18,895 nt of DNA from a phage: the sequence record PZ049716.1; one strand, written 5' to 3'. The translations under genes and the position numbers were made by a program. Numbering within the stretch: the stretch's first letter is position 1; every line of letters begins with the position of its first letter. Below, piece after piece: positions 1 through 17,656 of this stretch. The notes under the pieces were generated by a model. The model saw only the letters and a program-made list of their open reading frames with translations. It did no database searches and was not told the DNA's origin.

Positions 1-1804
1 GGCGCCCACCCAACAGCAGGCTATCAGTGCCCGCCAGGCCAGAGTCGAGCTGGCCGATGCTGGTGTTGGTCAGCAGCCTGGCCTGCATAGTGACGCCCGA
101 GGAGTACTCGGTCTCGTCGGTACCCTCGAACGTGTCGTAGAACCACACCCGCGCACCTGCCGCATGCTCGGCCGGCACGGTATCGGCGCAGCCGCGGCCG
201 AGGGTGATCGCGCCGGTACCCAGGTCGATGGCGTCCACCCGCACGATCTCGTCGTCGAGCAGCGCCGCCTGGCCGAGGGTGACGCGGTCCAGGTCGATGC
301 CGCCAGTCAGAGTCGCTGAGGTGGCCGAGATGCCGAGCGCGCCGATAAGCTCCGCCGTTGGGCACCAGTCGGCCACACCGCGATCGATGAACGAACCACT
401 CGGACCTACGCGCGTGGTGAGGTTGTAGCTCAGCGACAGGCCGGTGGGCTTGGCGGCCAGCGTCGACAACCAGGCCGCAGTGACATCCACCAATGCCAGG
501 TTGGCCCGGTCGATCAAGCCGGCCAGCTCGCGGTACGGCACCTCCATCAGTCTGCGCAGCGCGATGGCCTGCGGCGTGCGATCGGGCGGCACGTAGCCGC
601 TAGGCGGTACCGCGACGAACGATGCCGCCGGCAGGCCGAACACGTCCTGCAGGGCGGTGATGGTGATCGCGCCGGAGTCCAGGGTGCCATCCTCGATGCG
701 ACCGGCGCGCACCACCACCTCGGCGAGGCCGCGCTTGAGCGAGCGGATGCGGAAGGCGTCGGCCGGCCCGATGCCGGCGGCGCGGCGATCCAGCTTGACC
801 TTGTACTTGCGCAGGTTGCTGGCCCGCACGCGCATGTCGCGCTGTACCACCCTGGCTGCCAAGTCGGCAGTCGGGATACCCGGATAGCTCACCGTCTCGG
901 CAGACGGTCCGCCCTGCAGCTGGGCCAGCGCCGAATTGACCGCCCGCGCGCGACGGGTCTCGCCGGTGATCGCGTCGGTGTACTCCAGCAGCAGCTGGCT
1001 CGGAGCAACCATCACACTGCCGGTCTCGTCCTCCTCGATGCTGAGCAGGCCACTGTCCTCGTCGAACAACGGCAGGGTCTCGACGTCGTAGTCGTCGCGG
1101 ATCAGCTTGAGGGTGATCAGCCCGGTGTTGCGGTCGGGCCCGGAGTAGGCGCCGATGTGGTCGCAGATCTGCTCGCGGAACTCGGCCAGGGTGCCGGACG
1201 AACGCTTCCAGCCGATGCACAGGCCGAAACCCTCGTTGTATAGCTGCAGTGCCGCTGCACGGAACGCCGTATCGTCCAGAAGCGAGCGATCGAGGCCGAG
1301 GCCGTTCTCGCGGTTGGTGTAGACCTCATAGAGGATGTGCGCCGCGTTCATCGCCCGCACCTGGCCGCCTTCCAGATCGATGGCGCAGGTCTCGGGGTAC
1401 CACACCGCGCCGTCCCAGCCCTTCAGGCGGCGGTAGCGCAGCAGCTCCCAGGCCTTCGGGTACGGGTTGTTCGAGGTCACCAGGCCGGTATAGAAGAAGC
1501 CGGCGAAGCCGCGAAAGTTCGGCACCAGCCCGCCCAGCGCCGAGGCCAGGCGCGCGTTGGGCGGCTGGTCCTCCTCACCCAGCATCAAGTCGAGCTCGCC
1601 GGCGATGCCGCCTTCGCCCTTGTCGCCGCCGAACAGGTTCGGCGCGTCGATATTGATGGTCTGGTTGCTGGTGGCATTGCCGGTCCAGGCCGTCTTGCCG
1701 CTAGCACGGATGGCCAGCAGGCCGTCGACGGCCTTGGCGATCGCGCCATGGATGTCGAAGCTGTAGCGGAAACCGACCGTCTGCGACTTACTGCTGCTGC
1801 CCAT
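1..1804 (-). CDS. Tail-tip host-specificity protein (lambda J-like), N-terminal ~600 codons; gene continues beyond the window start
   Basis: Minus-strand frame open from ATG at 1804 to position 1 with no stop (absent from the ORF track because it has no in-window stop). N-terminus MGSSSKSQTVGF...AVDGLLAIRASGKT resembles the MGKGSSKG...VDGLKSVLL start of lambda J-type proteins. Last gene of the tail-tip cluster. Confidence 0.55.
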   Translation of the reverse strand, partial: MGSSSKSQTVGFRYSFDIHGAIAKAVDGLLAIRASGKTAWTGNATSNQTINIDAPNLFGGDKGEGGIAGELDLMLGEEDQPPNARLASALGGLVPNFRGFAGFFYTGLVTSNNPYPKAWELLRYRRLKGWDGAVWYPETCAIDLEGGQVRAMNAAHILYEVYTNRENGLGLDRSLLDDTAFRAAALQLYNEGFGLCIGWKRSSGTLAEFREQICDHIGAYSGPDRNTGLITLKLIRDDYDVETLPLFDEDSGLLSIEEDETGSVMVAPSQLLLEYTDAITGETRRARAVNSALAQLQGGPSAETVSYPGIPTADLAARVVQRDMRVRASNLRKYKVKLDRRAAGIGPADAFRIRSLKRGLAEVVVRAGRIEDGTLDSGAITITALQDVFGLPAASFVAVPPSGYVPPDRTPQAIALRRLMEVPYRELAGLIDRANLALVDVTAAWLSTLAAKPTGLSLSYNLTTRVGPSGSFIDRGVADWCPTAELIGALGISATSATLTGGIDLDRVTLGQAALLDDEIVRVDAIDLGTGAITLGRGCADTVPAEHAAGARVWFYDTFEGTDETEYSSGVTMQARLLTNTSIGQLDSGLAGTDSLLLGGR

Positions 1805-2027
1805 GCTCGGCCTCCACCTTGCGTGCGTGCTCCACCAGATGCAGCGCCAGCGCGTTGCCGGTCGCGATCAGCACCTGGGCGTCGATACCCTCGCGCACGA
1901 ACGCCAGCCAATCGAGGTCATGCTCGGCGAAGAAGGCCCGGCTCTGCCGCGCGCAGTAGCCGGTGCGGGTAGTCCAGGTCGGCACCGTATGCAGGTGCTG
2001 AATGGTCACAATCAACGGCTCGCTCAC
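1788..2027 (-). CDS. Hypothetical small protein (79 aa) in tail-tip cluster
   Basis: ORF track; its ATG overlaps the stop of the upstream ORF (ATGA at 2024-2027) and it overlaps the J-like start by 17 nt; no family recognised by eye. Confidence 0.4.
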   Translation of the reverse strand: MSEPLIVTIQHLHTVPTWTTRTGYCARQSRAFFAEHDLDWLAFVREGIDAQVLIATGNALALHLVEHARKVEAEHGQQQ

Positions 2028-2263
2028 TTCTTACCACCCTTGCTCTTGATCGCCCGGCTGCGCTGGTTGCGCACCGTGAGCACCATCCAGTCCTTGCCCC
2101 ACACCTGGCCGAAGACCCACTCCTTCTCGGTGCCCTCGTCGCAGCGCGGAAAGTCGAAGTCCTGGAACGCGGCCGGCTTGGGCTTCGGCGGCTTGGGCGC
2201 CAGGGCGCTGTTGATCAGGTAGGACGCCACCATGATGATGATGTTGATCGTGATCGGATCCAT
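2024..2263 (-). CDS. Small membrane-anchored protein (79 aa), possibly tail assembly related
   Basis: Trimmed from track ORF 2024..2650 (the upstream part overlaps the DUF2163-like gene out of frame). ATG at 2263 lies 2 nt after the DUF2163-like stop. N-terminal hydrophobic helix (ITINIIIMVASYLINSALA) followed by a KPPKPKP linker. Confidence 0.45.
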   Translation of the reverse strand: MDPITINIIIMVASYLINSALAPKPPKPKPAAFQDFDFPRCDEGTEKEWVFGQVWGKDWMVLTVRNQRSRAIKSKGGKK

Positions 2264-2265
2264 GC

Positions 2266-3087
2266 CTAGAACACCTGTTCGCCGTCGAAAGGACTTTTGC
2301 CATCCATCTGCGGCGTGGCGCGCAGGTTGGCGAGGTTGCCGAACTTGCTGTTGCAGGTGGCGGCGGTGAAATCGCAGCCGGGGTAGACCCGGATCGCCTG
2401 CCCGCCCGCCAGCGCCAATGTGCCGCCCAGCAGGGTCAGCACGCTGCCGGCATGGCTCTCGACCGCGCGACGGTCGTACTCGCCCTGGCCGATCGGCCAC
2501 TCCACCCAGCCGCCACTGAACCAGCCGTCCGGATACGCCGCAAAGGTGCCACTGCTGATGCTGGAACCCGTCAGAGACTGGATGGTGGTCTCGACCCGGA
2601 GCGGGTTCATGTCGACGCCGCACCAGGGCGAGCCCAGGTAGGTGGTGCAAGTTCGGGCGAAGGTATCGACCAGGCCGGGGCGCTGCATCTCCGAATCGAT
2701 GTCCTGGCAGGTGATGCTGCAGCTATCCAGCGTCGGCCAGCGCACGTTGTCGATGTTGCCGGTGTAGCGCCATTTGCGCTCGGTCTCGCCGTAGTGGCCG
2801 TCGTAGATCAGCACGCCGATCCTCGCGGTGGGCATGCTGTTGCGAAACTGCTGCACCACCTCCAGATCGGCCGGCGCGGTAATCACCAGCGCATCCTGCT
2901 TAGCGACTCCGGTCTGGATCAGGCCGCGGTCGCTGATGCCGCCGCGCACGGCGCGATAAACCTGGGTGCCCACGGCGATGTCGCGGTCGCCGCTGTTGTA
3001 CAACCAGCGCCACACCCCTCGGCGGAACTCGTAGAAGCGCACCGGCGCGCCATCGGCCAGCGAGTACTCGCGGCTATCAAAACTCAT
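2266..3087 (-). CDS. Tail tip protein, DUF2163 / lambda gpL-like
   Basis: Start trimmed to ATG 3087 with GAGGAG Shine-Dalgarno 8 nt upstream. GDRDIAVGTQVYRA matches the FTDHDRDL..YRA signature I recall for the DUF2163 (BR0599) family; C-terminal cysteine cluster (C..C...GCDFTAATCNSKFGNLANL) resembles the lambda gpL Cys motif. Confidence 0.6.
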   Translation of the reverse strand: MSFDSREYSLADGAPVRFYEFRRGVWRWLYNSGDRDIAVGTQVYRAVRGGISDRGLIQTGVAKQDALVITAPADLEVVQQFRNSMPTARIGVLIYDGHYGETERKWRYTGNIDNVRWPTLDSCSITCQDIDSEMQRPGLVDTFARTCTTYLGSPWCGVDMNPLRVETTIQSLTGSSISSGTFAAYPDGWFSGGWVEWPIGQGEYDRRAVESHAGSVLTLLGGTLALAGGQAIRVYPGCDFTAATCNSKFGNLANLRATPQMDGKSPFDGEQVF

Positions 3088-4777
3088 CGTCACGCTCCTC
3101 GCGAAACACCGTTGCCCAAGCGGCAACGCCTTCGCTGTCCGTCATGTGCTCGATCTCCTGTTCATCGCTCTCGAAGCGCATCAGGTTCATCCAGCTGATG
3201 CGCGCGATCTGGTGCGGCTGCACCTCGACGCCCAGGGCGCTGTCCAGGCCGACGCGCTCGACTTGGTTGTCGAGTTCGGTCGAACCGATCAGCCGGCGCA
3301 TGAATACCGAACCGTCGAACAGCTCGATGCGGATATCGCGGCGGCCGGGCTTGCCGTTGCTGAACCGGGTGTAGCCGATGTAGGCGATGTCCAACGTCGT
3401 GGCAAACGTAGAAACCGTGGCCACCAGCGTTAGATCGTCCATGTGGCTCGGCACCCACACGACCTTTTGCCGGCCGCGCATGCCATAGATGAAAGAACGC
3501 ACCAGGGCACGCGCCTCGCGGCCGAGGTCAAGGTGACGCTGCCCCAGCATCTGCAGCGCGCGCTTGGCTGTGTCAGTGATCAGTGGCTGGGCAAAGCCGC
3601 TATCGAGCGTCGAGCGCAGGCGCTGCGCGCTGTGCGTGAGGCTCTCGCTGTCGTCAGGGCGGCGATCCCATACGGGGCGTCCTCTATATAAAGAAGTGGG
3701 CAACCACTCCGGCCAGTCACACGCCTCAACAACCAGGAACTGCACGTCAGCCTCGACCAGCTGATCGGTAAGTTTGCTCAGTGACGGTTCTTCGAGCAGC
3801 TGCGCCGCACGTGCTGGGTAAAGGCGCGTGCCAGCCGGCCAGGCCTGCTGAGTGTTGCGCTTGAGCTGCAGGCCGCCGCTGAGCACTTCCAGGATCTCCA
3901 CCGTCTCGCTGGTGAAGGCATCCTCGCCGCGCAGCATGGCCAGGCCGCCTGCGCGAAAATCTAAGTACTGCGTGGCACAGGGGATGAAATCGGCATCAGC
4001 AGCGAGGCTGACATCGAGCAGCTGGATGTCAGGCCAGATGGGCATCGACCAGATGCGATCGCTCCAGCCGAACAGCGAAAGATCAAGCAGCTGCCGCTCA
4101 CGCCCTTCGGCATACACCGGGCCGCTAAACTCACGGCGCGGCGCGAGGCGTAATTGGCGACGCTGGCTGACGGCTGATTCGCTCTGCAGGATGTCGGTGG
4201 AGGCGGTCAACCGCTCGCGGATGCCATCGCCCCAGTCCGGCACGAACGTCCAGGCGATGATGCGGTTGGCGGTGATGCGTAGGCCAGCTGAACGGCCGTT
4301 GTCGAACTGCCAGTCCACCACTGTATCGAGCACAGGCTGGCCGTCTGGGGTGACGGTGACCTGCCAGGTCAGCTCTTTCAGCGCTGGGAACAACAGGGGC
4401 GGCGCAGGCTGGCCGCTGACCTCAATGCCCTCATCGAGGCCTGCGATGTTGGTTAGGGTGCGCGGCTCCAGGTAGGCGTTCCACAGCATTACCGGGCTGG
4501 TCTGGGCGGATACGACGTTGCCGAGGTCCAACTGCAGCGGGTTGATGTGGACGCGGTTGTATAGGTCGTCGAGGTAACACCTAGCCAATGTGGCTGAAAC
4601 CGAATCGCCGTTGGCCGCAACTGGCCAATGCTCCAGAAGTGCTTGCATGGTAGGCGCTCGTCCAGCGGACTCAGATGGAGGCCAACCAATGCCAGTGGAA
4701 ATTGAGATTGGCGCCGACAGCAACGGATTCGCAATATCACCAGTGGCAGGCTGTACGAGGAAACCAGACAGAATCAT
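3077..4777 (-). CDS. Tail-associated structural protein, unknown family (566 aa)
   Basis: Start trimmed to ATG 4777 (MILSGFLV...), 2 nt after the stop of the upstream gene; its 3' end overlaps the DUF2163-like start; sits between the fibre-like genes and the tip protein. Confidence 0.5.
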   Translation of the reverse strand: MILSGFLVQPATGDIANPLLSAPISISTGIGWPPSESAGRAPTMQALLEHWPVAANGDSVSATLARCYLDDLYNRVHINPLQLDLGNVVSAQTSPVMLWNAYLEPRTLTNIAGLDEGIEVSGQPAPPLLFPALKELTWQVTVTPDGQPVLDTVVDWQFDNGRSAGLRITANRIIAWTFVPDWGDGIRERLTASTDILQSESAVSQRRQLRLAPRREFSGPVYAEGRERQLLDLSLFGWSDRIWSMPIWPDIQLLDVSLAADADFIPCATQYLDFRAGGLAMLRGEDAFTSETVEILEVLSGGLQLKRNTQQAWPAGTRLYPARAAQLLEEPSLSKLTDQLVEADVQFLVVEACDWPEWLPTSLYRGRPVWDRRPDDSESLTHSAQRLRSTLDSGFAQPLITDTAKRALQMLGQRHLDLGREARALVRSFIYGMRGRQKVVWVPSHMDDLTLVATVSTFATTLDIAYIGYTRFSNGKPGRRDIRIELFDGSVFMRRLIGSTELDNQVERVGLDSALGVEVQPHQIARISWMNLMRFESDEQEIEHMTDSEGVAAWATVFREERDDEF

Positions 4778-4778
4778 G

Positions 4779-5732
4779 TCATGGCCCGTCGTAGCGAATG
4801 GCCCAGCCGAAGGTGCCACTGTGGTCTAACGCAATACCGCCGGCAGGAACCGCTGAGTTCTTGCGGTAGAACGGGAAAATGATCCAGCGGTCGGGCCCCA
4901 GGGTAATAATTTGGCCAGGTTCATAGTTGTTGACCCTGACGTAGCGCGCATGACGGACCTGGCAAACCAGCGAACATTTGCTCGAAGCTCTCCACTGGTG
5001 AATTTTGATCGGGATGAGGATTGCCTCGTTGTTCCATGCGTTGGGAGATCTGCCGACGTGAGGCGCTGCGGGGTAAATTGCGTTCAGAGCACCGACGCTG
5101 TCCCCCTGGACACCTCCAAACCAGCTACCCGAGTCCAATCCGGTGTGTAACGTATGCGGCCAATGCGTGGCTCCCTGACTACTGTCGGTCTCCCAGAAAA
5201 AAGCGGTGCTGCCATACGCCGAGACACTGCTGTGAGCTACGCCTCCGTTAGTAGCGCTGATCGTGGCGCCCCCAGACGGGGCGGTGCCATAACCACACCG
5301 CGATGACGCAGAAAGCCATAGACCTGAACCAGGCAGTTCAGACTGGTCTGAGAGCCCGAATGACAGCCAATAGTGGTAGTCGATGCCGAAGTTGAGTACC
5401 AGATACACCTCATCTGGATTTGCATGGACCATGACATGGTACGTCGCCGGCCAAACCAACGCTGCCCATTCTCCCGCGCTACCTGGCCTACCGAGCCTAG
5501 GGCGCGCTGCGCTCGCGCCACTCAGAACGCCACCACTTGAGCCGGTACCTCCTTCGACAATCAATCCTGGGCCTTCGGTGGTGGTGGCTGACGCAGACAC
5601 ATAGGGCCGAACAAACGCCGAACCCTTGCTGAGGATCGTACCGTCCCAGGCCCATCCCTCTGCCACGCAGGCGCTGGTCAGTGCGCTCAGCAGATCGCTA
5701 TAGTTGTTTACCGATCCGGTGTAGTAGGCCAT
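4779..5732 (-). CDS. Putative tail fibre / receptor-binding-like protein (317 aa), paralog of the upstream gene
   Basis: ORF track; start overlaps the upstream stop (TGATG); N-terminus shares a pattern with the 280-aa protein (L..L....A..GW......L.KG); C-terminal half coding DNA is ~53-58% GC against >62% elsewhere. Confidence 0.45.
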   Translation of the reverse strand: MAYYTGSVNNYSDLLSALTSACVAEGWAWDGTILSKGSAFVRPYVSASATTTEGPGLIVEGGTGSSGGVLSGASAARPRLGRPGSAGEWAALVWPATYHVMVHANPDEVYLVLNFGIDYHYWLSFGLSDQSELPGSGLWLSASSRCGYGTAPSGGATISATNGGVAHSSVSAYGSTAFFWETDSSQGATHWPHTLHTGLDSGSWFGGVQGDSVGALNAIYPAAPHVGRSPNAWNNEAILIPIKIHQWRASSKCSLVCQVRHARYVRVNNYEPGQIITLGPDRWIIFPFYRKNSAVPAGGIALDHSGTFGWAIRYDGP

Positions 5733-6574
5733 CAGCCGTCCATCCGTAGTGCGTAGTAGTCATTGAAACCGGTTCTGGCCACATCCTGGATCACGACCCA
5801 GTCGACGCCGGCGACCGACACGGTGTTCTCCACCGCATTGTTGAATCCCGTAATCTGAGCCACCCCATCGAGATAGCCATAGATGCCGTTGGCATCGCTC
5901 AGCTCTACCGGGGTCACCGAGTACGTTCCCTCGGTATCACGCAGCTGGGTTGTGGCTCCGGCCAAATGGTCGTTGTTCCACGGGTAGCACTCGGGCTGAA
6001 GCCAGACACCGCTGTTGAAACGCTGGCGCATATTGGCCCTGGCGCCTTTGTACGGCATTGAATGTACGGTGTCCGAGAATCGGGTGGCCGGAGTACCGCT
6101 GAGCATGCCGGCACAGATCAACGGATCGCGGTACTGACCTGGGCTTGCATAAGGCAGGAACTTGCCCACGTAGCAGCTCTCGTACACCGGTGTGCCCACC
6201 TTCATCGCCAGGGCTATGCGCTGCGGGTTTACCGTCAGCCAGTAGTCGATGCGATTGTTGTGCGCCGGTACTCCGCTGAGCATGGCACCCGGCTGAGTAT
6301 CAAATGAGTTGCTGGGCACGTACCCCATAAAGCACCCCGCCACCAGATTGTAGTAGTCCGCGCTGACGTCCTGGTACGTGCGGAAGCCGACGAAGATCTC
6401 CTCCTCGCCGGTGTAGCCCGCGCCCTTGAGGATCAGCTCGCGGTTGGCCGGGGCGGTGTCGTAGCGCAGCACCGTCCAGCCGTTCGCCGAGGCGAAGTCG
6501 CGGATGGTCTGCAGCATCTTGTAGTGGGCAAGCGTGCCGCCCGAGTTGTCGACGAATCCGATCTGGTGAGGCAT
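5732..6574 (-). CDS. Putative tail protein (280 aa), immediately after the tape measure gene
   Basis: ORF track; ATG at 6574 lies 1 nt after the tape measure stop; N-terminal region paralogous to the 317-aa protein. Confidence 0.45.
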   Translation of the reverse strand: MPHQIGFVDNSGGTLAHYKMLQTIRDFASANGWTVLRYDTAPANRELILKGAGYTGEEEIFVGFRTYQDVSADYYNLVAGCFMGYVPSNSFDTQPGAMLSGVPAHNNRIDYWLTVNPQRIALAMKVGTPVYESCYVGKFLPYASPGQYRDPLICAGMLSGTPATRFSDTVHSMPYKGARANMRQRFNSGVWLQPECYPWNNDHLAGATTQLRDTEGTYSVTPVELSDANGIYGYLDGVAQITGFNNAVENTVSVAGVDWVVIQDVARTGFNDYYALRMDG

Positions 6575-6575
6575 A

Positions 6576-9047
6576 TCAGAGTCCCAGTAGCTGGCGCACT
6601 TCGGCGCCGTTCTGTTGCAGGTAGACGAGGAAATGCTCCTGCCCGGGTTTGCTCCAGGCAGCGGCCGCCACGTCCTCGGGGCGCTGGACGGCGTACAGGT
6701 TCACGCTGTTCTTGAGGTTGGTGCTCATGCCCTTGGCCGGCTCGGCCAGGCGGGTGTTTGCCAGCCCAGGCGATGGCAAGGCCGGTGCCGGCACGCCTGC
6801 AAGGCCACCGGTCGAGTGACGCACGCGGTAGTCGTTGACTGCAGCCATGCCTCGGGCGTTGAAGTCGTGCAAAAAGTTCAGCGCACCAGGTTGCTGCACA
6901 ACAGCTGCACGGGTGACGAACTCGTAGTTCGATAGCCAAGCCGGGATGCTGTCGCTGGTGGTAGTACCAGGGCCGGTGATATGGCCACCAGTGGAAGCGG
7001 CTACTGCCGCAACCGATGCAGCACTCGAAAGCGCATTGCTGGTCGAGCTGGCCACCTTGGCGCCGGCGATCGCCGACGCCATCGCTGCAGCTGCAGATGC
7101 CCCAGCCGATGTGATTGCGGTACCCATAGCAGTCGCAGCCGTCGTGCCACCAGCTGTGATCCCTGTGCCCATTGCCGTGGCGCCGGCGGTCGATGCCGTG
7201 GTGATGGCCGTTGCCGTTGCCGTTGCCGCGGCCGTCTCAGCCGCTGCATCAGCACCACTGCCGAACATGCCCATCACACTGTTGGTCAGCCCTTCAGCCA
7301 GGTTCTTCGCGGCCATCTGCGCCAGGGCATCGGCCACGCTCTGGCCGAGGGCGGTGACGGCCTCGCGCAGGTTCATGGTGCCAGTTGCCAGGCCAGAAAG
7401 CGCCGAGGTCAAGCCGCCCTCGATGCCGGTGCGCAGGGTCTCCTGCAGGAGCGTGGTGGTAGCGAGCAGGCGGTTGGCCTGGGCGTCGAGATTGTCCAGC
7501 GCCTGCTGGGCGGAGGCGCCGATCGCACCGGGCATCTGCGCCATCTCAGCCAGCAGCGGGCGAATCTCCTGCAGCTGAGCATTCGTCTGGCGGTGGATCT
7601 CCAGAATCCGCTCGCGCGCGCCGACCTCGCTCAAAAGCCCGGCCTGCTGCTCGGCCTGCACCGATTGTTCTTGGCGGGTCTGCTCGGCCAGCACTTGGTC
7701 GTACAGACGCTGGATCTCGTTGAAGCGGATCTGCGCCTGCTCGACGTTCACCAGGCTGTTGATGATGTTCAGGCCGGCGGTGTCACCGTTGGCCTGCAGG
7801 CGCTGCATCAGTTCGCCATAGCGCTGCTCGATCTCGATCGTCAGCGCCTCGGCGTCGCGGCCCTCGGCGCGCAGCAGCTGGGCGCGCAGGCCGGCGATCT
7901 GGCGGGCGTCAGCATCGAGCTGCTGCTTGCGCTCCTCGGCAGCGATCAATGCCTGGGCGGCAATGGCTCGATCGCGCAGCGCGCCGGTCAGGCCCTTCTC
8001 GGCCAGCTCGTAGGCGCGCACCTGGTCAGTGCTCAGGCCGAGCAGCGCGGCGCTACGCTCCAGTCCGCGCACGTATTGTTCCTGCTGTCGGGTCTGCTGC
8101 TGGCTGGCCTGGGCGGCGGCCTTGCTCGCTTCGCCACTGGCGCGCTTGGCATCGATCTCCTGGGCGTAGCGCAGCAGGGCCTGTTGCTGGGCGGCGTCCA
8201 GTTCGCCCAACTCGCCGCGCTCGATGGCGTAGCGCACGCGGGCGGCTTCACTGGTGACGCCAAACAGCTCGGACTGTTTTTGCAGGTTGGTAAGGAGTTT
8301 GTCGTATTCCTTGTTCGCCGCCTTGACCTCTTCGGTCTCAGTGGTAACCGGGATCTCTACTGTCGGCTTGGCTGGCGCATTGCGCAGCACGTCCTCGATG
8401 CGCTTGATCTCGGCGCGGATCTCATCGTCGCTGACAAAGCTGATCAGCCCGTCATCGCCGAAGAAGCGCAGGCGCTCGCCGAGGTTGAACAGGCTGTCAT
8501 CAGCGAGCAGGCCGCGCAGGTCTTCGAGACGCTGCTGCAGACCGTCCACGTTCGAATCAGCGACGTCGACGCCGAGGCGGCCCAGGAAAGCGAGAAAGTT
8601 GCCGCCCTCGGCCGCAGCAGCAGCCAGGGAGCCAGTCAATCGCACCAGGCTACTGACAAGCGAATCAACACCCTGTGCGGTCGCCGGGTCGCTCAGCACC
8701 TGGGTGAGCTTCTCGATCTCTCCAGCTGACTCCTTGAGCCCGCCCTTGGCCTCCAGCAAGTCGCCAAACGCGTTCTTCAGCGCCTGGATACTGCCACCCA
8801 GGGTTTCGCGAGCCGCGCGAGCACTGCCGCCCATCTGCGTCTCTAGCTCGGCCAGAATGATCTTCTGTGCATCGAGAATCCGCCCGGACTCGACCAGGGT
8901 CTGTATCTGATCCTTCTGTTGCTCGGTGAACTGCACGCCAACGCGCGTCAGTGCGGCCACACCCTGGATGGGATCGTTGAGCGCCTTACCCAGCTGGATG
9001 GCCGAGGACTTGAGGTCTTGACCCATTGCGGTGCTCATATCGAGCAC
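6576..9047 (-). CDS. Tail tape measure protein, main segment (frame continues upstream of the GTG the track uses as start)
   Basis: 823-aa ORF; N-terminus MSTAMGQDLKSSAIQLGKALNDPIQG is the conserved tape-measure core; long coiled-coil middle; Ala/Thr/Gly-rich low-complexity C-terminus. Confidence 0.75.
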   Translation of the reverse strand: MLDMSTAMGQDLKSSAIQLGKALNDPIQGVAALTRVGVQFTEQQKDQIQTLVESGRILDAQKIILAELETQMGGSARAARETLGGSIQALKNAFGDLLEAKGGLKESAGEIEKLTQVLSDPATAQGVDSLVSSLVRLTGSLAAAAAEGGNFLAFLGRLGVDVADSNVDGLQQRLEDLRGLLADDSLFNLGERLRFFGDDGLISFVSDDEIRAEIKRIEDVLRNAPAKPTVEIPVTTETEEVKAANKEYDKLLTNLQKQSELFGVTSEAARVRYAIERGELGELDAAQQQALLRYAQEIDAKRASGEASKAAAQASQQQTRQQEQYVRGLERSAALLGLSTDQVRAYELAEKGLTGALRDRAIAAQALIAAEERKQQLDADARQIAGLRAQLLRAEGRDAEALTIEIEQRYGELMQRLQANGDTAGLNIINSLVNVEQAQIRFNEIQRLYDQVLAEQTRQEQSVQAEQQAGLLSEVGARERILEIHRQTNAQLQEIRPLLAEMAQMPGAIGASAQQALDNLDAQANRLLATTTLLQETLRTGIEGGLTSALSGLATGTMNLREAVTALGQSVADALAQMAAKNLAEGLTNSVMGMFGSGADAAAETAAATATATAITTASTAGATAMGTGITAGGTTAATAMGTAITSAGASAAAAMASAIAGAKVASSTSNALSSAASVAAVAASTGGHITGPGTTTSDSIPAWLSNYEFVTRAAVVQQPGALNFLHDFNARGMAAVNDYRVRHSTGGLAGVPAPALPSPGLANTRLAEPAKGMSTNLKNSVNLYAVQRPEDVAAAAWSKPGQEHFLVYLQQNGAEVRQLLGL

Positions 9048-9475
9048 CGTCTCCAGGGCGCGGGGAACACCTCGCGGCCGATCTTGGTGAAGGTGAGCAG
9101 CAGCGACTGAGCCGGGATCACCGCTTCATCGCCGTAGGTGGTCACCTGCTGCATGGCGCTGGCCATCTCCAGCAGTTCGTCGCGGGTCAGGCCAGCGGCA
9201 CCCTGAGTAGAGCGAAGGGTTTGTTCAAGCTGAGCAGTTACACGCTCCTGCTCGATGGTGGCGCTGATCACCGCCTTGTAAACGGCGCCGCCTGCAAAGG
9301 CAGCAACGACATTGCCGATGGTCTTGCCCAGCTTCTCCATATCGCGGCTGGACGACTGGGCCTGCTGGCCGTTGGCCTCGACGGCGCCCTCCAGCTGCTT
9401 CAGCTCACCGATCGCCTGCTGCAGATCGGCGCGGATGCGCATTGCCAGTTCGAGGTTCTTGCCTGCCAGAGCCAT
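9035..9475 (-). CDS. Tail tape measure protein, N-terminal segment (146 aa) separated from the main segment by an apparent frameshift
   Basis: ORF track; ...TRDELLEMASAMQQVTTYGDEAVIPAQSLLLTFTKIGREVFP is the first half of the same conserved core domain that continues in the 6576..9047 frame. Confidence 0.6.
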   Translation of the reverse strand: MALAGKNLELAMRIRADLQQAIGELKQLEGAVEANGQQAQSSSRDMEKLGKTIGNVVAAFAGGAVYKAVISATIEQERVTAQLEQTLRSTQGAAGLTRDELLEMASAMQQVTTYGDEAVIPAQSLLLTFTKIGREVFPAPWRRCSI

Positions 9476-15569: not shown

Positions 15570-15887
15570 TCAGCGCACGCGCAGGGCGTGGTCGGCGGGG
15601 TAGTCCAGCAGGGCCAGGGTGTTGTGCAGGGCTTGATCGGCCAGCTCCTGCACTTTGTAGGCCTGCTGTTCCAGGTCGCCGGCCAGCACGTCCACCAGTT
15701 GGCACAGGTCGCTGCGCGACACATGGTCGAGCATGGCCGGGGTTTCGTCGCCTTCGGCATCCACCGGCAGCGGCACGGCCAGCAGTTGTTTCAGGGCGCT
15801 CAGGGCGCCCATGCGTTCGGCCAGGCGGCGCGCTGCAAAAGCGTTGATGGCCGCCACCTGGTCGGGGCGCAGCTCATGCAGGCTCAT
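15570..15887 (-). CDS. Acidic hypothetical protein (105 aa), no recognisable family; candidate accessory / anti-defence effector
   Basis: ORF track; ATG overlaps the stop of the Bro-N gene (ATGA at 15884-15887); about 16 Asp/Glu against 8 Lys/Arg; followed by a terminator. Confidence 0.5.
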   Translation of the reverse strand: MSLHELRPDQVAAINAFAARRLAERMGALSALKQLLAVPLPVDAEGDETPAMLDHVSRSDLCQLVDVLAGDLEQQAYKVQELADQALHNTLALLDYPADHALRVR

Positions 15888-16597
15888 TGCTCACCATCCT
15901 TGCTGCTCAGCGGCAGCAGGGCGACGGCGGCGGCCTGTTGCAGGTGCCGGCCAATGCGGTCGAGCTGGTCGGCCAGCGGCTGGTTGTGCGCCGAGTTGCA
16001 GAAGCGCTGGGCCAGGCGCTGCTGCTGCTCGATCAGCCGCGCCTGCTCGTTCTCCAGGTGCTTGGCCGCCACGGCGGCCAGCAGCTCGGGGCTGCACTGT
16101 GGGCTGCCGGCGGCGGGGCTGAACTGGTACTTGGCGTGCAGCAGCAGGTTGACCGTGGGTTTGGACAACCCCAGCTGGCGGGCGATATTGGCCTGGCTCC
16201 AGCCGCCCACGAACAACTCCAGCACCCGCCGTTCTATTTCGCGAGTGACCAGCACGCGGCCGCTGGGCGCTTTCGGTGGAGCCATAAGGGCATCGAGGAT
16301 GTCCAGCACCCACTTGCGGAACTCGGCTGCCACCGGCGTGCGGGCGAACATGCCCAGCAGGTGGGCGCCGCGCAGGGAGAATATACGGGTTTGTTGAATA
16401 CCGCCGGCAGTCTGCAGATCGACTAAGGCGGTCATGCCGTCGGTGAACTCCGCAGCATTCTTTTCGTACAGCTTCCAGATAGCGTGATCCGGCCGTGCAT
16501 ACCCCAAGGCACCTCCGATCTGGAGGCCCCTTAGCCAATGCTGGCCATTGCGGTCGATAACGTCGAACTGGGTATCGCGGAAGGTGAGCGCTTTCAT
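15884..16597 (-). CDS. Bro-N domain protein with central helix-turn-helix and C-terminal coiled coil (237 aa); putative regulator / antirepressor
   Basis: ORF track; GGAG Shine-Dalgarno 7 nt before ATG 16597; N-terminus TFRDTQFDVIDRNGQHWLRGLQIGGALGY...EF...GGIQQTRIFSLRGAHLLGMF...AAEFRKWV matches Bro-N; GWSQANIARQLGLSKPTVNLLLH is HTH-like. Confidence 0.6.
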   Translation of the reverse strand: MKALTFRDTQFDVIDRNGQHWLRGLQIGGALGYARPDHAIWKLYEKNAAEFTDGMTALVDLQTAGGIQQTRIFSLRGAHLLGMFARTPVAAEFRKWVLDILDALMAPPKAPSGRVLVTREIERRVLELFVGGWSQANIARQLGLSKPTVNLLLHAKYQFSPAAGSPQCSPELLAAVAAKHLENEQARLIEQQQRLAQRFCNSAHNQPLADQLDRIGRHLQQAAAVALLPLSSKDGEQ

Positions 16598-16605
16598 GGT
16601 GGGAC

Positions 16606-16680
16606 TCCGTAAGGTTCAGTCAATGCCTGATGGATTAGTAGCCCATCAGGTGGTCGGGACTCAACTAGGGCCTTACGGAC
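16606..16680 (-). promoter_or_regulatory. Nested inverted repeats and promoter-like elements immediately upstream of the Bro-N gene
   Basis: Outer inverted repeat ccgtaagg (16607-16614) / ccttacgg (16671-16678); inner perfect palindrome cctgatgg-9 nt-ccatcagg (16626-16650); minus-strand -35 TTGAGT (16659-16664) and -10 TACTAA (16635-16640) with 18-nt spacer; the 3' arm of the outer repeat abuts the Shine-Dalgarno sequence. Confidence 0.45.
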
Positions 16681-16730
16681 CCCTGGCGCTTCTTCCCCCG
16701 AAGGGTGTTGTATCCGCGCTCTCATCCCGA

Positions 16731-16762
16731 CCATAAAAGCAAACGCCAGCCCGAGGGCTGGC
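16731..16762 (-). terminator. Intrinsic terminator inside the G / Bro-N intergenic region
   Basis: Minus-strand GCCAGCCC-TC-GGGCTGGC stem followed by GTTTGCTTTTAT. Confidence 0.5.
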
Positions 16763-16812
16763 GGCAGGCGGCGTGGTCAGTGCCGTGGCTGCCGTAAGGT
16801 TTAGTGCCTAAA

Positions 16813-16841
16813 ACACTAGCCCAGCGTTACCACCTTGGCAA
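16813..16841 (-). promoter_or_regulatory. Sigma-70-like promoter candidate on the minus strand
   Basis: -35 TTGCCA (16836-16841), 17-nt spacer, -10 TAGTGT (16813-16818); lies ~50-70 nt upstream of the terminator at 16731-16762. Confidence 0.3.
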
Positions 16842-16860
16842 CAGCTTTTCCATTTAAGGC

Positions 16861-16960
16861 GTCGCCGAAACGGCGACACCCGGCGCGGATGCCGCCAAAG
16901 GGGTGGTCAAAATGGCGACCCCTTTTGATGACACTACATTCGTCGCCGTTTTGGCGACGA
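16861..16960. promoter_or_regulatory. Array of operator-like palindromes with GGCGAC arms
   Basis: gtcgccg-aaa-cggcgac (16861-16877), half-site ggtcaaaatggcgacc (16905-16920), tcgtcgcc-gtttt-ggcgacga (16940-16960); centre-to-centre spacing ~40 bp. Confidence 0.45.
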
Positions 16961-17167
16961 AACCCCCAAGAAGGAAGCTCGTATTTTCGCCGGTTTTCCC
17001 GGTTTTCCCAGGCTCTGGCCCAAAACTCACTCCAGGCCTGATGCAGAGCCGTGTTTATAAACGCCCAAACAGCCCCGGAAAGGGCCAGAGGCACCCGGAT
17101 ACATACAACGGCAGCCCCCTGGGGGCCTTAAAACGCTTCTACGGGCCTTTGCGGCGGTTTGCGGTTT

Positions 17168-17656
17168 TCAGCCCTGCAAACGGGCCTGCAGGTGATCGCG
17201 GGCGATGGCGATGATCTCCGCTGCGTCATCATCGGAGATACCGAGGAACGGCCGCGCCGGAATGTCGCCCCAGGGGATGGGCGCGCCGCGACGGGTTTTG
17301 CCGAAGGCGCCCTTGAGCGCGCCGAACTGATGCACCGCACCGTATACCCGATCGGTGCCCACCAGCAGGGTGGCGCCTTCGACCTGCGGGAAGATCTGCC
17401 GCACAAGATCGCCACGCCGCTGCAGGATCTTGCCAGGGTTCGGCGACTTGGTTTCCAGGTAGCGCGGGCTGAGTGACTTCCAGGTCTGGCCATCCGGCCC
17501 GCGTTGCGCGCTGAAGCGGTCGCGGGTGCTGTTGACCAGCGCCTCGCCGATGTCCAGCAGCATCGGCCTTGGGTCAGTCAGCTCGGCCAAGGCGCCGCGA
17601 ATAGCCGACAACACGGCGGCGTTGTCGAACTCCAGCTCTACCCGTGCGCCGCTCAC
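17168..17656 (-). CDS. Virion morphogenesis protein, Mu G-like (162 aa)
   Basis: ORF track (GTG start overlapping the upstream stop); LLDIGEALVNSTRDRFSAQRGPDGQTWKSLSPRYLETK...VGTDRVYGAVHQFG matches the Mu gpG signature. Confidence 0.7.
   Translation of the reverse strand: MSGARVELEFDNAAVLSAIRGALAELTDPRPMLLDIGEALVNSTRDRFSAQRGPDGQTWKSLSPRYLETKSPNPGKILQRRGDLVRQIFPQVEGATLLVGTDRVYGAVHQFGALKGAFGKTRRGAPIPWGDIPARPFLGISDDDAAEIIAIARDHLQARLQG

What the first reader, a model, noticed from the sequence alone, without database searches (positions are those of the whole stretch)
4779..6574. Paralogous fibre-like gene pair after the tape measure gene, with a lower-GC 3' portion
The 280-aa and 317-aa proteins share an N-terminal pattern but diverge completely in their C-terminal halves. 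The DNA for the C-terminal half of the 317-aa protein (about 4780-5400) is ~53-58% GC against >62% in flanking genes. This is the signature of a recently exchanged receptor-binding domain, so a host-range determinant acquired horizontally.
Basis: partly seen in the sequence, partly recalled or inferred. Interest (0 to 1): 0.5.

Follow-up and report, generated by a model that had tools for sequence, protein, structure and literature searches.

The report
Paired pilus-binding tail-fibre genes, swappable cassette
The two genes after the tape measure gene are distant copies of one another that match the two-protein side fibre of Pseudomonas phage JBD30 (its type IV pilus grip), and the second gene plus the neighbouring anchor segment forms a variable, swappable block, which is an ordinary kind of phage host-range module.

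Summary

The GC dip is real (58%, 3rd percentile of the window). It is a third-codon-position trough over all of p317 and the first ~60-70 Dit codons, not p317's C-terminal half. It recurs in 23 of 27 related loci, so it does not indicate a recent import.

Exchange is supported, with different boundaries. Relatives with 90-97% identical Dit bodies carry 39-46% identical p317, and nucleotide homology stops at 4572-4576. The variable block is p280's C-half, p317 and the Dit N-arm. p317's C-terminal ~100 residues are its most conserved part.

Verdict: a new member of a known kind, of modest interest.

The parts
5732..6574 (-). p280: gp47-like subunit of the heterodimeric lateral tail fibre
4779..5732 (-). 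p317: gp48-like subunit of the heterodimeric lateral tail fibre. It is the most variable gene of the module and the centre of the GC3 trough.
   Evidence: PHROG 687, E 5.9e-30. Sequence match to 8rk3_S (JBD30 gp48), E 1.9e-4. Foldseek to 8rk3_G, E 2.7e-13, TM 0.69/0.71. Model pLDDT 94. GC3 0.635 against 0.75-0.87 in neighbouring genes.
4573..4777 (-). N-terminal arm of the distal tail protein (Dit residues 1-68), which co-varies with the fibre genes. The true Dit start is the ATG at 4777, not the GTG at 4819.
   Evidence: The first 48 residues do not align to JBD30 gp49, while residues 49-566 align at E 2e-183. In JBD30, Dit domain I (residues 2-74) wraps around the fibres. GC3 is 0.45-0.53. 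Nucleotide homology to L027-L030 stops at 4572-4576.
3077..4572 (-). Body of the distal tail protein (gp49-like), a conserved core component
   Evidence: PHROG 1082, E 2.4e-182. 8rk3_U, E 2e-183. 90-97% amino-acid identity to L027, L028 and L030. An 830-nt exact match to L027 at 3369-4198.
4573..6184 (-). Variable fibre cassette: p280 residues ~131-280, all of p317 and the Dit N-arm. Its hard core, with no nucleotide homology to the closest-core relatives, is 4573-5710.
   Evidence: Identity profiles. blastn gaps. Synonymous sites saturated here against dS 0.18 in the Dit body, window vs L027. Identity correlations: p317 with p280C rho 0.78, p317 with DitN rho 0.60, Dit body with hub rho 0.94.
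6576..9047 (-). Body of the tape measure protein (context). Its N-terminal 146 codons lie in another frame at 9035-9475.
   Evidence: PHROG 2335, E 1.2e-83. Frame analysis.
2266..3087 (-). Upper baseplate protein (gp50-like; DUF2163/BR0599), 273 aa from the ATG at 3087
   Evidence: PF09356, E 1.8e-17. 8rk3_g, E 4.7e-92.
2..1867 (-). Baseplate hub (gp53-like); it runs off the left end of the window
   Evidence: Open frame with GC3 0.88. 8rk3_o, E 3.6e-220.

Best explanation
The window is the late region of a Mu-like (JBD30/D3112-type) siphophage prophage from a Pseudomonas-like host.

The two genes after the tape measure gene encode the two subunits of a JBD30-type lateral tail fibre. p280 corresponds to gp47 and p317 to gp48. 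They are ancient paralogues that share one globular alpha/beta fold.

By analogy with the solved JBD30 baseplate, they are made in equal amounts from translationally coupled genes and pair as heterodimers. Three heterodimers stack into each of three bent arms. The arms are held by the N-terminal arm of the distal tail protein and by the upper baseplate protein. [quoted passage not shown]

The surface-determining part forms a hypervariable cassette: the C-half of p280, all of p317 and the Dit N-arm. This cassette is reshuffled among related prophages by recombination in the conserved flanks.

Shown here: paralogy, the fold assignment, the conserved baseplate context, the mosaic history and the family-wide GC3 trough.
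Inferred: heterodimer stoichiometry, pilus binding and a role in host range.
For: - Same profile family for both proteins.
- Reciprocal best structural matches to gp47 and gp48, with the other paralogue second and nothing else significant.
- Same gene order as JBD30 gp46-gp53.
- Core baseplate proteins match JBD30 at E 2e-183, 5e-92 and 4e-220.
- JBD30 architecture and pilus binding are described in PMC11445458.
- Stop/start overlap TGATG between the two genes.
- Mosaicism, identities: Dit body is 97/94/90% identical to L027/L028/L030, but p317 is 46/39/46% and Dit N-arm 38/32/44%. L002 has Dit body 72% but p317 67%.
- Mosaicism, divergence: dS is 0.18 in the Dit body against saturated synonymous sites in the cassette. 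Against L003, dS is 0.386 in p280 and 0.051 in p317. Nucleotide homology ends at 4572-4576 in four relatives.
- In a directed-evolution study, a gp48-like gene of phage M6/JM2 acquired a point mutation and a 154-bp recombination tract in output phages; one of these infected one additional host (PMC11577772).
- The pair occurs in phage groups that include pilus-dependent phages: 192 and 466 phage records, among them Septimatrevirus and Stenotrophomonas and Xylella phages. The related Stenotrophomonas phages DLP1 and DLP2 use type IV pili (abstract of PMC6024842).
Against: - Identity to JBD30 gp47/gp48 is only 16-27%, so the binding specificity cannot be transferred.
- Pilus contact in JBD30 rests on a 26 A map plus an AlphaFold-multimer prediction.
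- A 2026 preprint attributes pilin-specificity differences to the distal trimeric fibre (the gp54 type), which lies beyond the window's left end.
- Heterodimer formation was not modelled here.
- The direction and date of the cassette exchange are unknown. The only close cassette relative is a 2-kb contig (L003).
- The tape measure gene carries a frameshift, so the prophage may be defective.
Confidence: 0.8

Rival explanations
1. One reading: the C-terminal half of the 317-aa protein is a recently acquired receptor-binding domain, marked by its lower GC.
For: GC of 4780-5400 is 58%, among the lowest in the window. p317 is the least conserved gene of the module.
Against: - GC3 is equally low in both halves of p317 (0.62 and 0.65), and the trough continues into the Dit N-arm.
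- Among 50 homologues and 12 loci, p317 residues ~220-317 are its most conserved part, and residues ~40-220 vary.
- All listed homologues but one fragment cover 98-100% of the protein, so no N-only relatives were found.
- The trough is shared with L002, where synonymous sites are saturated, and with 23 of 27 loci.
Confidence: 0.07
2. No exchange occurred. The fibre genes simply diverge very fast in place, under diversifying selection from pilin variation, and are inherited vertically with the rest of the tail module.
For: p317 is less conserved than its neighbours in nearly every locus. Its identity to L002 (67%) is in line with that locus's Dit body (72%).
Against: - Window vs L027: Dit body pS is 0.16 (it includes an 830-nt exact match), but p317, the Dit N-arm and p280C have pS 0.74-0.78. 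In-place divergence would need a whole-gene dN/dS of about 3 and still could not explain the saturated synonymous sites.
- The order of relatedness is reversed between cassette and core (L002 vs L027-L030).
- There is a 7.5-fold jump in dS between the adjacent genes p280 and p317 against L003.
Confidence: 0.08
3. p280 is an enzyme: a nitrilase-superfamily hydrolase acting on the cell wall, as was suggested for JBD30 gp47. On this view it is not primarily a receptor-binding fibre subunit.
For: The JBD30 paper reports that gp47 was classified in the nitrilase superfamily.
Against: - No Pfam hit at E<=0.1.
- No cysteine is conserved in 31 orthologues: 4/31, 16/31, 20/31 and 25/31. A Glu-Lys-Cys triad is therefore not maintained.
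Confidence: 0.04

Closest known systems
Pseudomonas phage JBD30 (Casadabanvirus) tail-fibre-forming proteins gp47 and gp48 (PDB 8RK3; PMC11445458)
   Same: - The gene position is the same: TMP, then the pair, then Dit, upper baseplate protein, two small genes and the hub.
- The pair are paralogues of each other.
- The partner baseplate core is ~60% identical in Dit and hub.
   Different: - The fibre proteins share only 16-27% identity with gp47/gp48.
- p280 is 38 residues shorter than gp47.
- The Dit N-terminal 48 residues do not align.
- JBD30 itself shows almost no GC3 trough (0.80-0.81 against 0.82-0.84).
PHROG 687 'structural protein' pairs of Septimatrevirus and relatives (phage 73, Kakheti25, Ab26 ORF21/ORF22, PaMx42), and of Xanthomonas, Stenotrophomonas and Xylella siphophages
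   Same: The same tandem pair lies after the TMP and before a PHROG 1082 Dit and a BR0599 protein. In Ab26, the pair and the start of the Dit gene are also the lowest-GC3 genes of the module.
   Different: These are lytic phages with a different head and replication module. Identity is 35% for p317 and 44-45% for p280.
Phage M6/JM2 (Yuavirus) gp48-like structural protein PPM6_gp033
   Same: It was modelled on JBD30 gp48. It acquired a point mutation and a 154-bp recombination tract in directed-evolution output phages, one of which infected one additional host (PMC11577772).
   Different: The phage genus differs. No sequence comparison with the window was made here.
Modular receptor-binding-protein exchange in siphophage baseplates generally (established knowledge)
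   Same: A conserved attachment or flank region is combined with a variable receptor-contacting part, and the parts are swapped by recombination.
   Different: Here the swapped unit spans three genes, including the anchoring arm of the Dit, rather than the C-terminal domain of a single trimeric fibre.

Membership tests
JBD30 gp47/gp48-type heterodimeric lateral tail fibre | Two adjacent paralogous genes between the tape measure gene and the distal tail protein gene | tested here: met
   ORF map and PHROG hits. The JBD30 gene order is identical.
JBD30 gp47/gp48-type heterodimeric lateral tail fibre | Each protein has the gp47 or gp48 fold, with first gene = gp47 and second gene = gp48 | tested here: met
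JBD30 gp47/gp48-type heterodimeric lateral tail fibre | Detectable sequence homology to the family | tested here: met
   PHROG 687, E 2e-65 and 6e-30. phmmer against 8RK3 chains, E 2.8e-17 and 1.9e-4.
JBD30 gp47/gp48-type heterodimeric lateral tail fibre | JBD30-type attachment partners are present: a Dit with an N-terminal arm, the upper baseplate protein and the hub | tested here: met
   8RK3 chains U, g and o match at E 2e-183, 4.7e-92 and 3.6e-220.
JBD30 gp47/gp48-type heterodimeric lateral tail fibre | The two proteins form a heterodimer, with three heterodimers per fibre and three fibres per baseplate | not testable with these tools
   No multimer prediction was available. Indirect support only: the TGATG start/stop overlap and co-variation of p317 with p280's C-half (rho 0.78).
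JBD30 gp47/gp48-type heterodimeric lateral tail fibre | Binds the type IV pilus | not testable with these tools
   Inferred from JBD30. The pair also occurs in phage groups that include type IV pilus-dependent phages.
Nitrilase (CN-hydrolase) superfamily | Nitrilase fold and a conserved Glu-Lys-Cys catalytic triad | tested here: not met
Classical trimeric tail fibre or beta-helix tailspike | [quoted passage not shown] | tested here: not met
   The models are single globular alpha/beta folds. The only significant PDB matches are gp47 and gp48.
Diversity-generating retroelement target | A template/variable repeat pair and a reverse transcriptase nearby | tested here: not met
   No repeat of 30 nt or more involving 4500-6600 other than one 37-nt chance-level match. 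PHROG scans of 16 of the window's ORFs gave no reverse-transcriptase hit; the remaining ORFs were not scanned.

The most novel reading that the evidence does not exclude
The third-position GC trough is a heritable, family-wide property of the gp48-like gene and the Dit N-arm, not a trace of one import. It is seen in 23 of 27 loci, in hosts from 39 to 69% GC, and it persists across saturated synonymous divergence. The conserved p280 N-terminus is correspondingly GC3-enriched.

Two readings would explain this:
1. The pilus-binding cassettes circulate as a common pool across host genera and never equilibrate to any single host.
2. The divergent cassette is cold for homologous recombination, while its conserved flanks are crossover hot spots enriched by GC-biased gene conversion.

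On either reading, a GC3 trough flanked by a GC3 peak could be used as a sequence-only marker of swappable receptor-binding cassettes.
Probability: 0.3. Interest if true: 0.45.

Novelty: new member of a known kind. Interest (0 to 1): 0.3.

Why it matters
It gives a structure-based function to a pair of 'hypothetical' or 'structural' proteins. That pair is widespread in prophages of Pseudomonas, Acinetobacter, Moraxella, Xanthomonas and betaproteobacteria.

It also defines the unit to swap when re-targeting such phages. The unit is not a C-terminal domain. It is a three-gene block: the C-half of the gp47-like gene, the whole gp48-like gene, and the anchoring arm of the distal tail protein.

Finally, it is a caution against reading a local GC dip as recent horizontal transfer. 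Here the dip is an old, family-wide feature.

Tried and rejected
- BLASTP of the two proteins gave no significant alignment.
- hhalign of two shallow family alignments (Neff 1.6) found only the N-terminal 34 columns at E 0.14. Paralogy had to be shown through the PHROG profile and through structure.
- Megablast of the whole window against 50,697 phage records found no close phage. The best hit was 74% over 4% of the window.
- An exact-sequence look-up of p317 found no record.
- DGR-type mutagenesis was rejected because no repeats were found.
- An enzymatic nitrilase-like role was rejected.
- A general link between conservation and GC3 was tested along 2 kb of aligned codons in 26 loci. Outside the cassette there is none (rho 0.05), so the trough is specific to the cassette.
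- A megablast run with a 97% identity filter returned nothing, because the alignments extend into diverged flanks. A direct exact-match search replaced it.
- The direction and donor of the cassette exchange could not be determined. The only near-identical cassette, L003, lies on a 2-kb contig.

Full report
**1. What is at the coordinates**

All relevant genes are on the minus strand.
- The tape measure protein (TMP) body occupies 6576-9047. It matches PHROG 2335 at E 1e-83.
- It is followed by a 280-aa ORF (5732-6574, 'p280') and a 317-aa ORF (4779-5732, 'p317').
- The junctions are TGAtATG, TGATG and TGAcATG. The genes are therefore tightly, probably translationally, coupled.
- The next gene was listed as 580 aa from a GTG at 4819. 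It really starts at the ATG at 4777 and is 566 aa long, as in its relatives.
- Downstream lie a 273-aa BR0599/DUF2163 protein (2266-3087), two small ORFs, and a hub gene that runs off the left end (open frame 1867 to 2).
- Upstream lie a tail tube gene and Mu-like head genes: F-like, protease and major head. Relatives carry Mu-like gpT and Gp36 domains.
- The window is therefore the late region of a Mu-like transposable siphophage prophage.

**2. Are the two proteins paralogues?**

Direct sequence comparison fails.
- BLASTP gives E=4. Its best local hit is the C-terminal motif YALRMDG / WAIRYDG.
- hhalign of two family alignments aligns only the N-terminal 34 columns at E=0.14.

Other evidence shows full-length paralogy.
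- Both proteins match one profile, PHROG 687, over the same span, positions 161-469 (E 1.9e-65 and 5.9e-30).
- The AlphaFold models are confident: pLDDT 94 for p317 and 83 for p280.
- Each model finds exactly two significant PDB matches, namely the two fibre chains of the JBD30 baseplate, 8RK3.
  - p317 to gp48: Foldseek E 2.7e-13, TM 0.69/0.71.
  - p317 to gp47: Foldseek E 2e-8.

So the pair are full-length structural paralogues. The claim that their C-terminal halves 'diverge completely' is wrong at the level of fold.

**3. What they are**

The JBD30 paper (PMC11445458) describes the following.
- gp47 and gp48 have similar folds and form heterodimers.
- Three heterodimers build each of three bent-arm 'tail fibres'.
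- The fibres are attached through the upper baseplate protein and the distal tail protein (Dit). Dit domain I (residues 2-74) wraps around them.
- The fibres embrace the type IV pilus, based on a 26 A map plus an AlphaFold-multimer prediction.

JBD30 has the same gene order, gp46 TMP through gp53 hub.

The window's core baseplate proteins are close to those of JBD30.
- Dit residues 49-566 match at E 2e-183.
- The upper baseplate protein matches at E 4.7e-92.
- The hub matches at E 3.6e-220.
- By contrast, the fibre pair is only 16-27% identical, and the first 48 Dit residues do not align.

The same pair is found in 192 (p317) and 466 (p280) phage records. These include Septimatrevirus (phage 73, Ab26 ORF21/22, Kakheti25) and Xanthomonas, Stenotrophomonas and Xylella phages. 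It is also found in prophages of Pseudomonas, Acinetobacter, Moraxella, Cellvibrio, Thiobacillus, Rubrivivax and others.

The suggested nitrilase-like enzymatic role of gp47 finds no support for p280.
- There is no Pfam hit.
- There is no nitrilase among the listed structural hits.
- No cysteine is conserved among orthologues.

**4. The GC observation**

The dip is real: 4780-5400 has 58.0% GC, the 3rd percentile of the window. It is caused by third codon positions.
- GC3 of p317 is 0.635, with 0.62 in the N-half and 0.65 in the C-half.
- The neighbouring genes have GC3 0.75-0.87. GC1 and GC2 of p317 are unremarkable.
- The trough continues into the first ~60 listed codons of the Dit gene (GC3 0.45-0.53).
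- It is shallower over p280 codons ~80-280 (0.65-0.78), whereas the first 80 codons of p280 have GC3 0.93-1.0.

The trough is old and family-wide.
- The same profile is present in L002, whose p317 is 67% identical and whose synonymous sites are saturated relative to the window.
- It is also present in L003.
- Across 27 related loci from hosts of 39-69% GC, the p317 orthologue has lower GC3 than the module core in 23 (mean -0.095; Wilcoxon p 5e-6). The Dit N-arm is lower in 18 of 27. The p280 N-terminus is higher in 20 of 27. These loci are not phylogenetically independent.
- Outside the cassette, conservation and GC3 are unrelated (rho 0.05).
- JBD30 itself barely shows the trough.

The dip therefore cannot be used as evidence of a recent acquisition in this lineage. 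Its cause remains unexplained.

**5. Is there exchange?**

Yes, but with boundaries different from those proposed.

Where the variation lies:
- Among 12 relatives, the variable zone is p317 residues ~20-220 and Dit residues 1-60.
- p317 residues ~220-317 and p280 residues 1-180 are conserved.

Discordance between core and cassette:
- The closest Dit bodies belong to L027 (P. aeruginosa), L028 (P. spirodelae) and L030, at 97, 94 and 90% identity over residues 131-566.
- Those same loci have p317 at 46, 39 and 46%, Dit N-arm at 38, 32 and 44%, and p280 C-half at 64, 58 and 62%.
- Their p317 proteins are only 47-54% identical to one another.
- L002 has a Dit body of 72% but p317 of 67% and Dit N-arm of 57%. 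The order of relatedness is reversed between core and cassette.

Nucleotide-level evidence:
- Homology to L027-L030 ends at 4572-4576 in all four. It resumes at 5641-5720 in three of them and only at 6078 in L029.
- Window vs L027: dS is 0.18 in the Dit body, 0.62 in p280's N-part and 0.69 in the upper baseplate gene. Synonymous sites are saturated (pS 0.74-0.78) in p280's C-half, p317 and the Dit N-arm.
- Window vs L003: the adjacent genes differ 7.5-fold in dS (p280 0.386, p317 0.051).
- An 830-nt exact match to L027 lies inside the Dit gene (3369-4198), and a 214-nt exact match to L029 and L030 lies at 3168-3381. These show ongoing gene-conversion-like exchange in this module.

Co-variation:
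- Identity of p317 to the window correlates best with p280's C-half (rho 0.78) and the Dit N-arm (rho 0.60).
- Dit body and hub correlate with each other at rho 0.94.

Together these define a cassette: p280 C-half + p317 + Dit N-arm. Its history is decoupled from the baseplate core. It matches the parts that, in JBD30, form the fibre and wrap around it.

**6. Mechanism and caveats**

The most likely reading is a JBD30-type pilus-grasping lateral fibre whose receptor-facing parts are exchangeable.
- In JBD30, the residues predicted to contact PilA are gp47 Asp185 and gp48 Tyr169.
- By approximate alignment offsets, these fall at the start of p280's variable C-half and in the middle of p317's variable zone. 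This mapping is an inference.
- Experimental precedent: a gp48-like gene of phage M6/JM2 picked up a substitution and a 154-bp recombination tract in directed-evolution output phages. One of these gained one additional host (PMC11577772).

Caveats:
- A 2026 preprint assigns pilin-specificity differences among related phages to the distal trimeric fibre, which lies outside this window.
- Heterodimer formation and pilus binding were not testable here.
- The prophage's TMP appears frameshifted.

**7. Verdict**

This is an ordinary but well-resolved case: a new, divergent member of the JBD30 gp47/gp48 fibre family within a recombining cassette.
- Its interpretation is partly supported. A fibre-forming, probably receptor-binding, horizontally shuffled module is supported. 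A C-terminal domain swap dated by low GC is not.
- The family-wide GC3 trough is the one feature that remains without a tested explanation.

Noticed in passing
window 9035-9125 (minus strand), around 9060-9075: The tape measure gene is split between two frames. The N-terminal 146 codons (9475-9035) end at '...TFTKIGREVFP', and the reading continues as 'RALETVLDMSTAMGQ...' in another frame. This is consistent with a 1-nt deletion in the run GTTCCCCGCGCCC. It is either a sequencing error or an inactivating mutation, which would make the prophage defective.
   Followed up: partly
window 3369-4198 (also 3168-3381 and 59-193): An 830-nt stretch inside the distal tail protein gene is exactly identical to a P. 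aeruginosa contig (L027, run SRR5217505). Its flanks have only 40-70% third-position identity. A 214-nt exact match to L029 and L030 lies next to it. These look like very recent gene-conversion tracts in the baseplate core.
   Followed up: partly
window 15884-16597 (minus strand), with the low-GC stretch 16350-17250: An Ant-type anti-repressor gene (PHROG 5060, E 7e-39) sits between the Mu-like head genes. It lies next to the window's second GC dip (0.56-0.60), so it is possibly a moron insertion.
   Followed up: no
window 5732-6574, first ~80 codons (about 6335-6574): The N-terminal part of p280 has extreme GC3 (0.93-1.0), higher than any neighbouring stretch. The same enrichment relative to the module core is seen in 20 of 27 related loci. 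This is the mirror image of the trough in the next gene.
   Followed up: partly
window 3077-4819 and 2266-3126: The mechanically listed ORFs (580 aa from a GTG, 286 aa from a TTG) overextend the genes. Comparison with relatives and JBD30 places the starts at the ATG at 4777 (566 aa) and the ATG at 3087 (273 aa). The latter overlaps the Dit gene end by 11 nt, as in relatives.
   Followed up: yes
window 2-4777 compared with PDB 8VJH: The Dit, upper baseplate and hub proteins also match the tail tip of the flagellotropic phage Chi (E 1.5e-39, 3.7e-47 and 2.6e-131). The fibre pair has no counterpart among the chains of that entry. The same baseplate core is thus combined with different peripheral adhesins.
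   Followed up: no
L029 9102-10001: In the P. chengduensis relative, no gene is called between the p280-like gene and the Dit gene. The frame-1 translation of the distal ~360 nt of that gap is nevertheless open and p317-like (ending ...GTLGWAIRYEGP). This looks like an annotation gap in the public gene calls; the upstream part of the frame was not checked.
   Followed up: no
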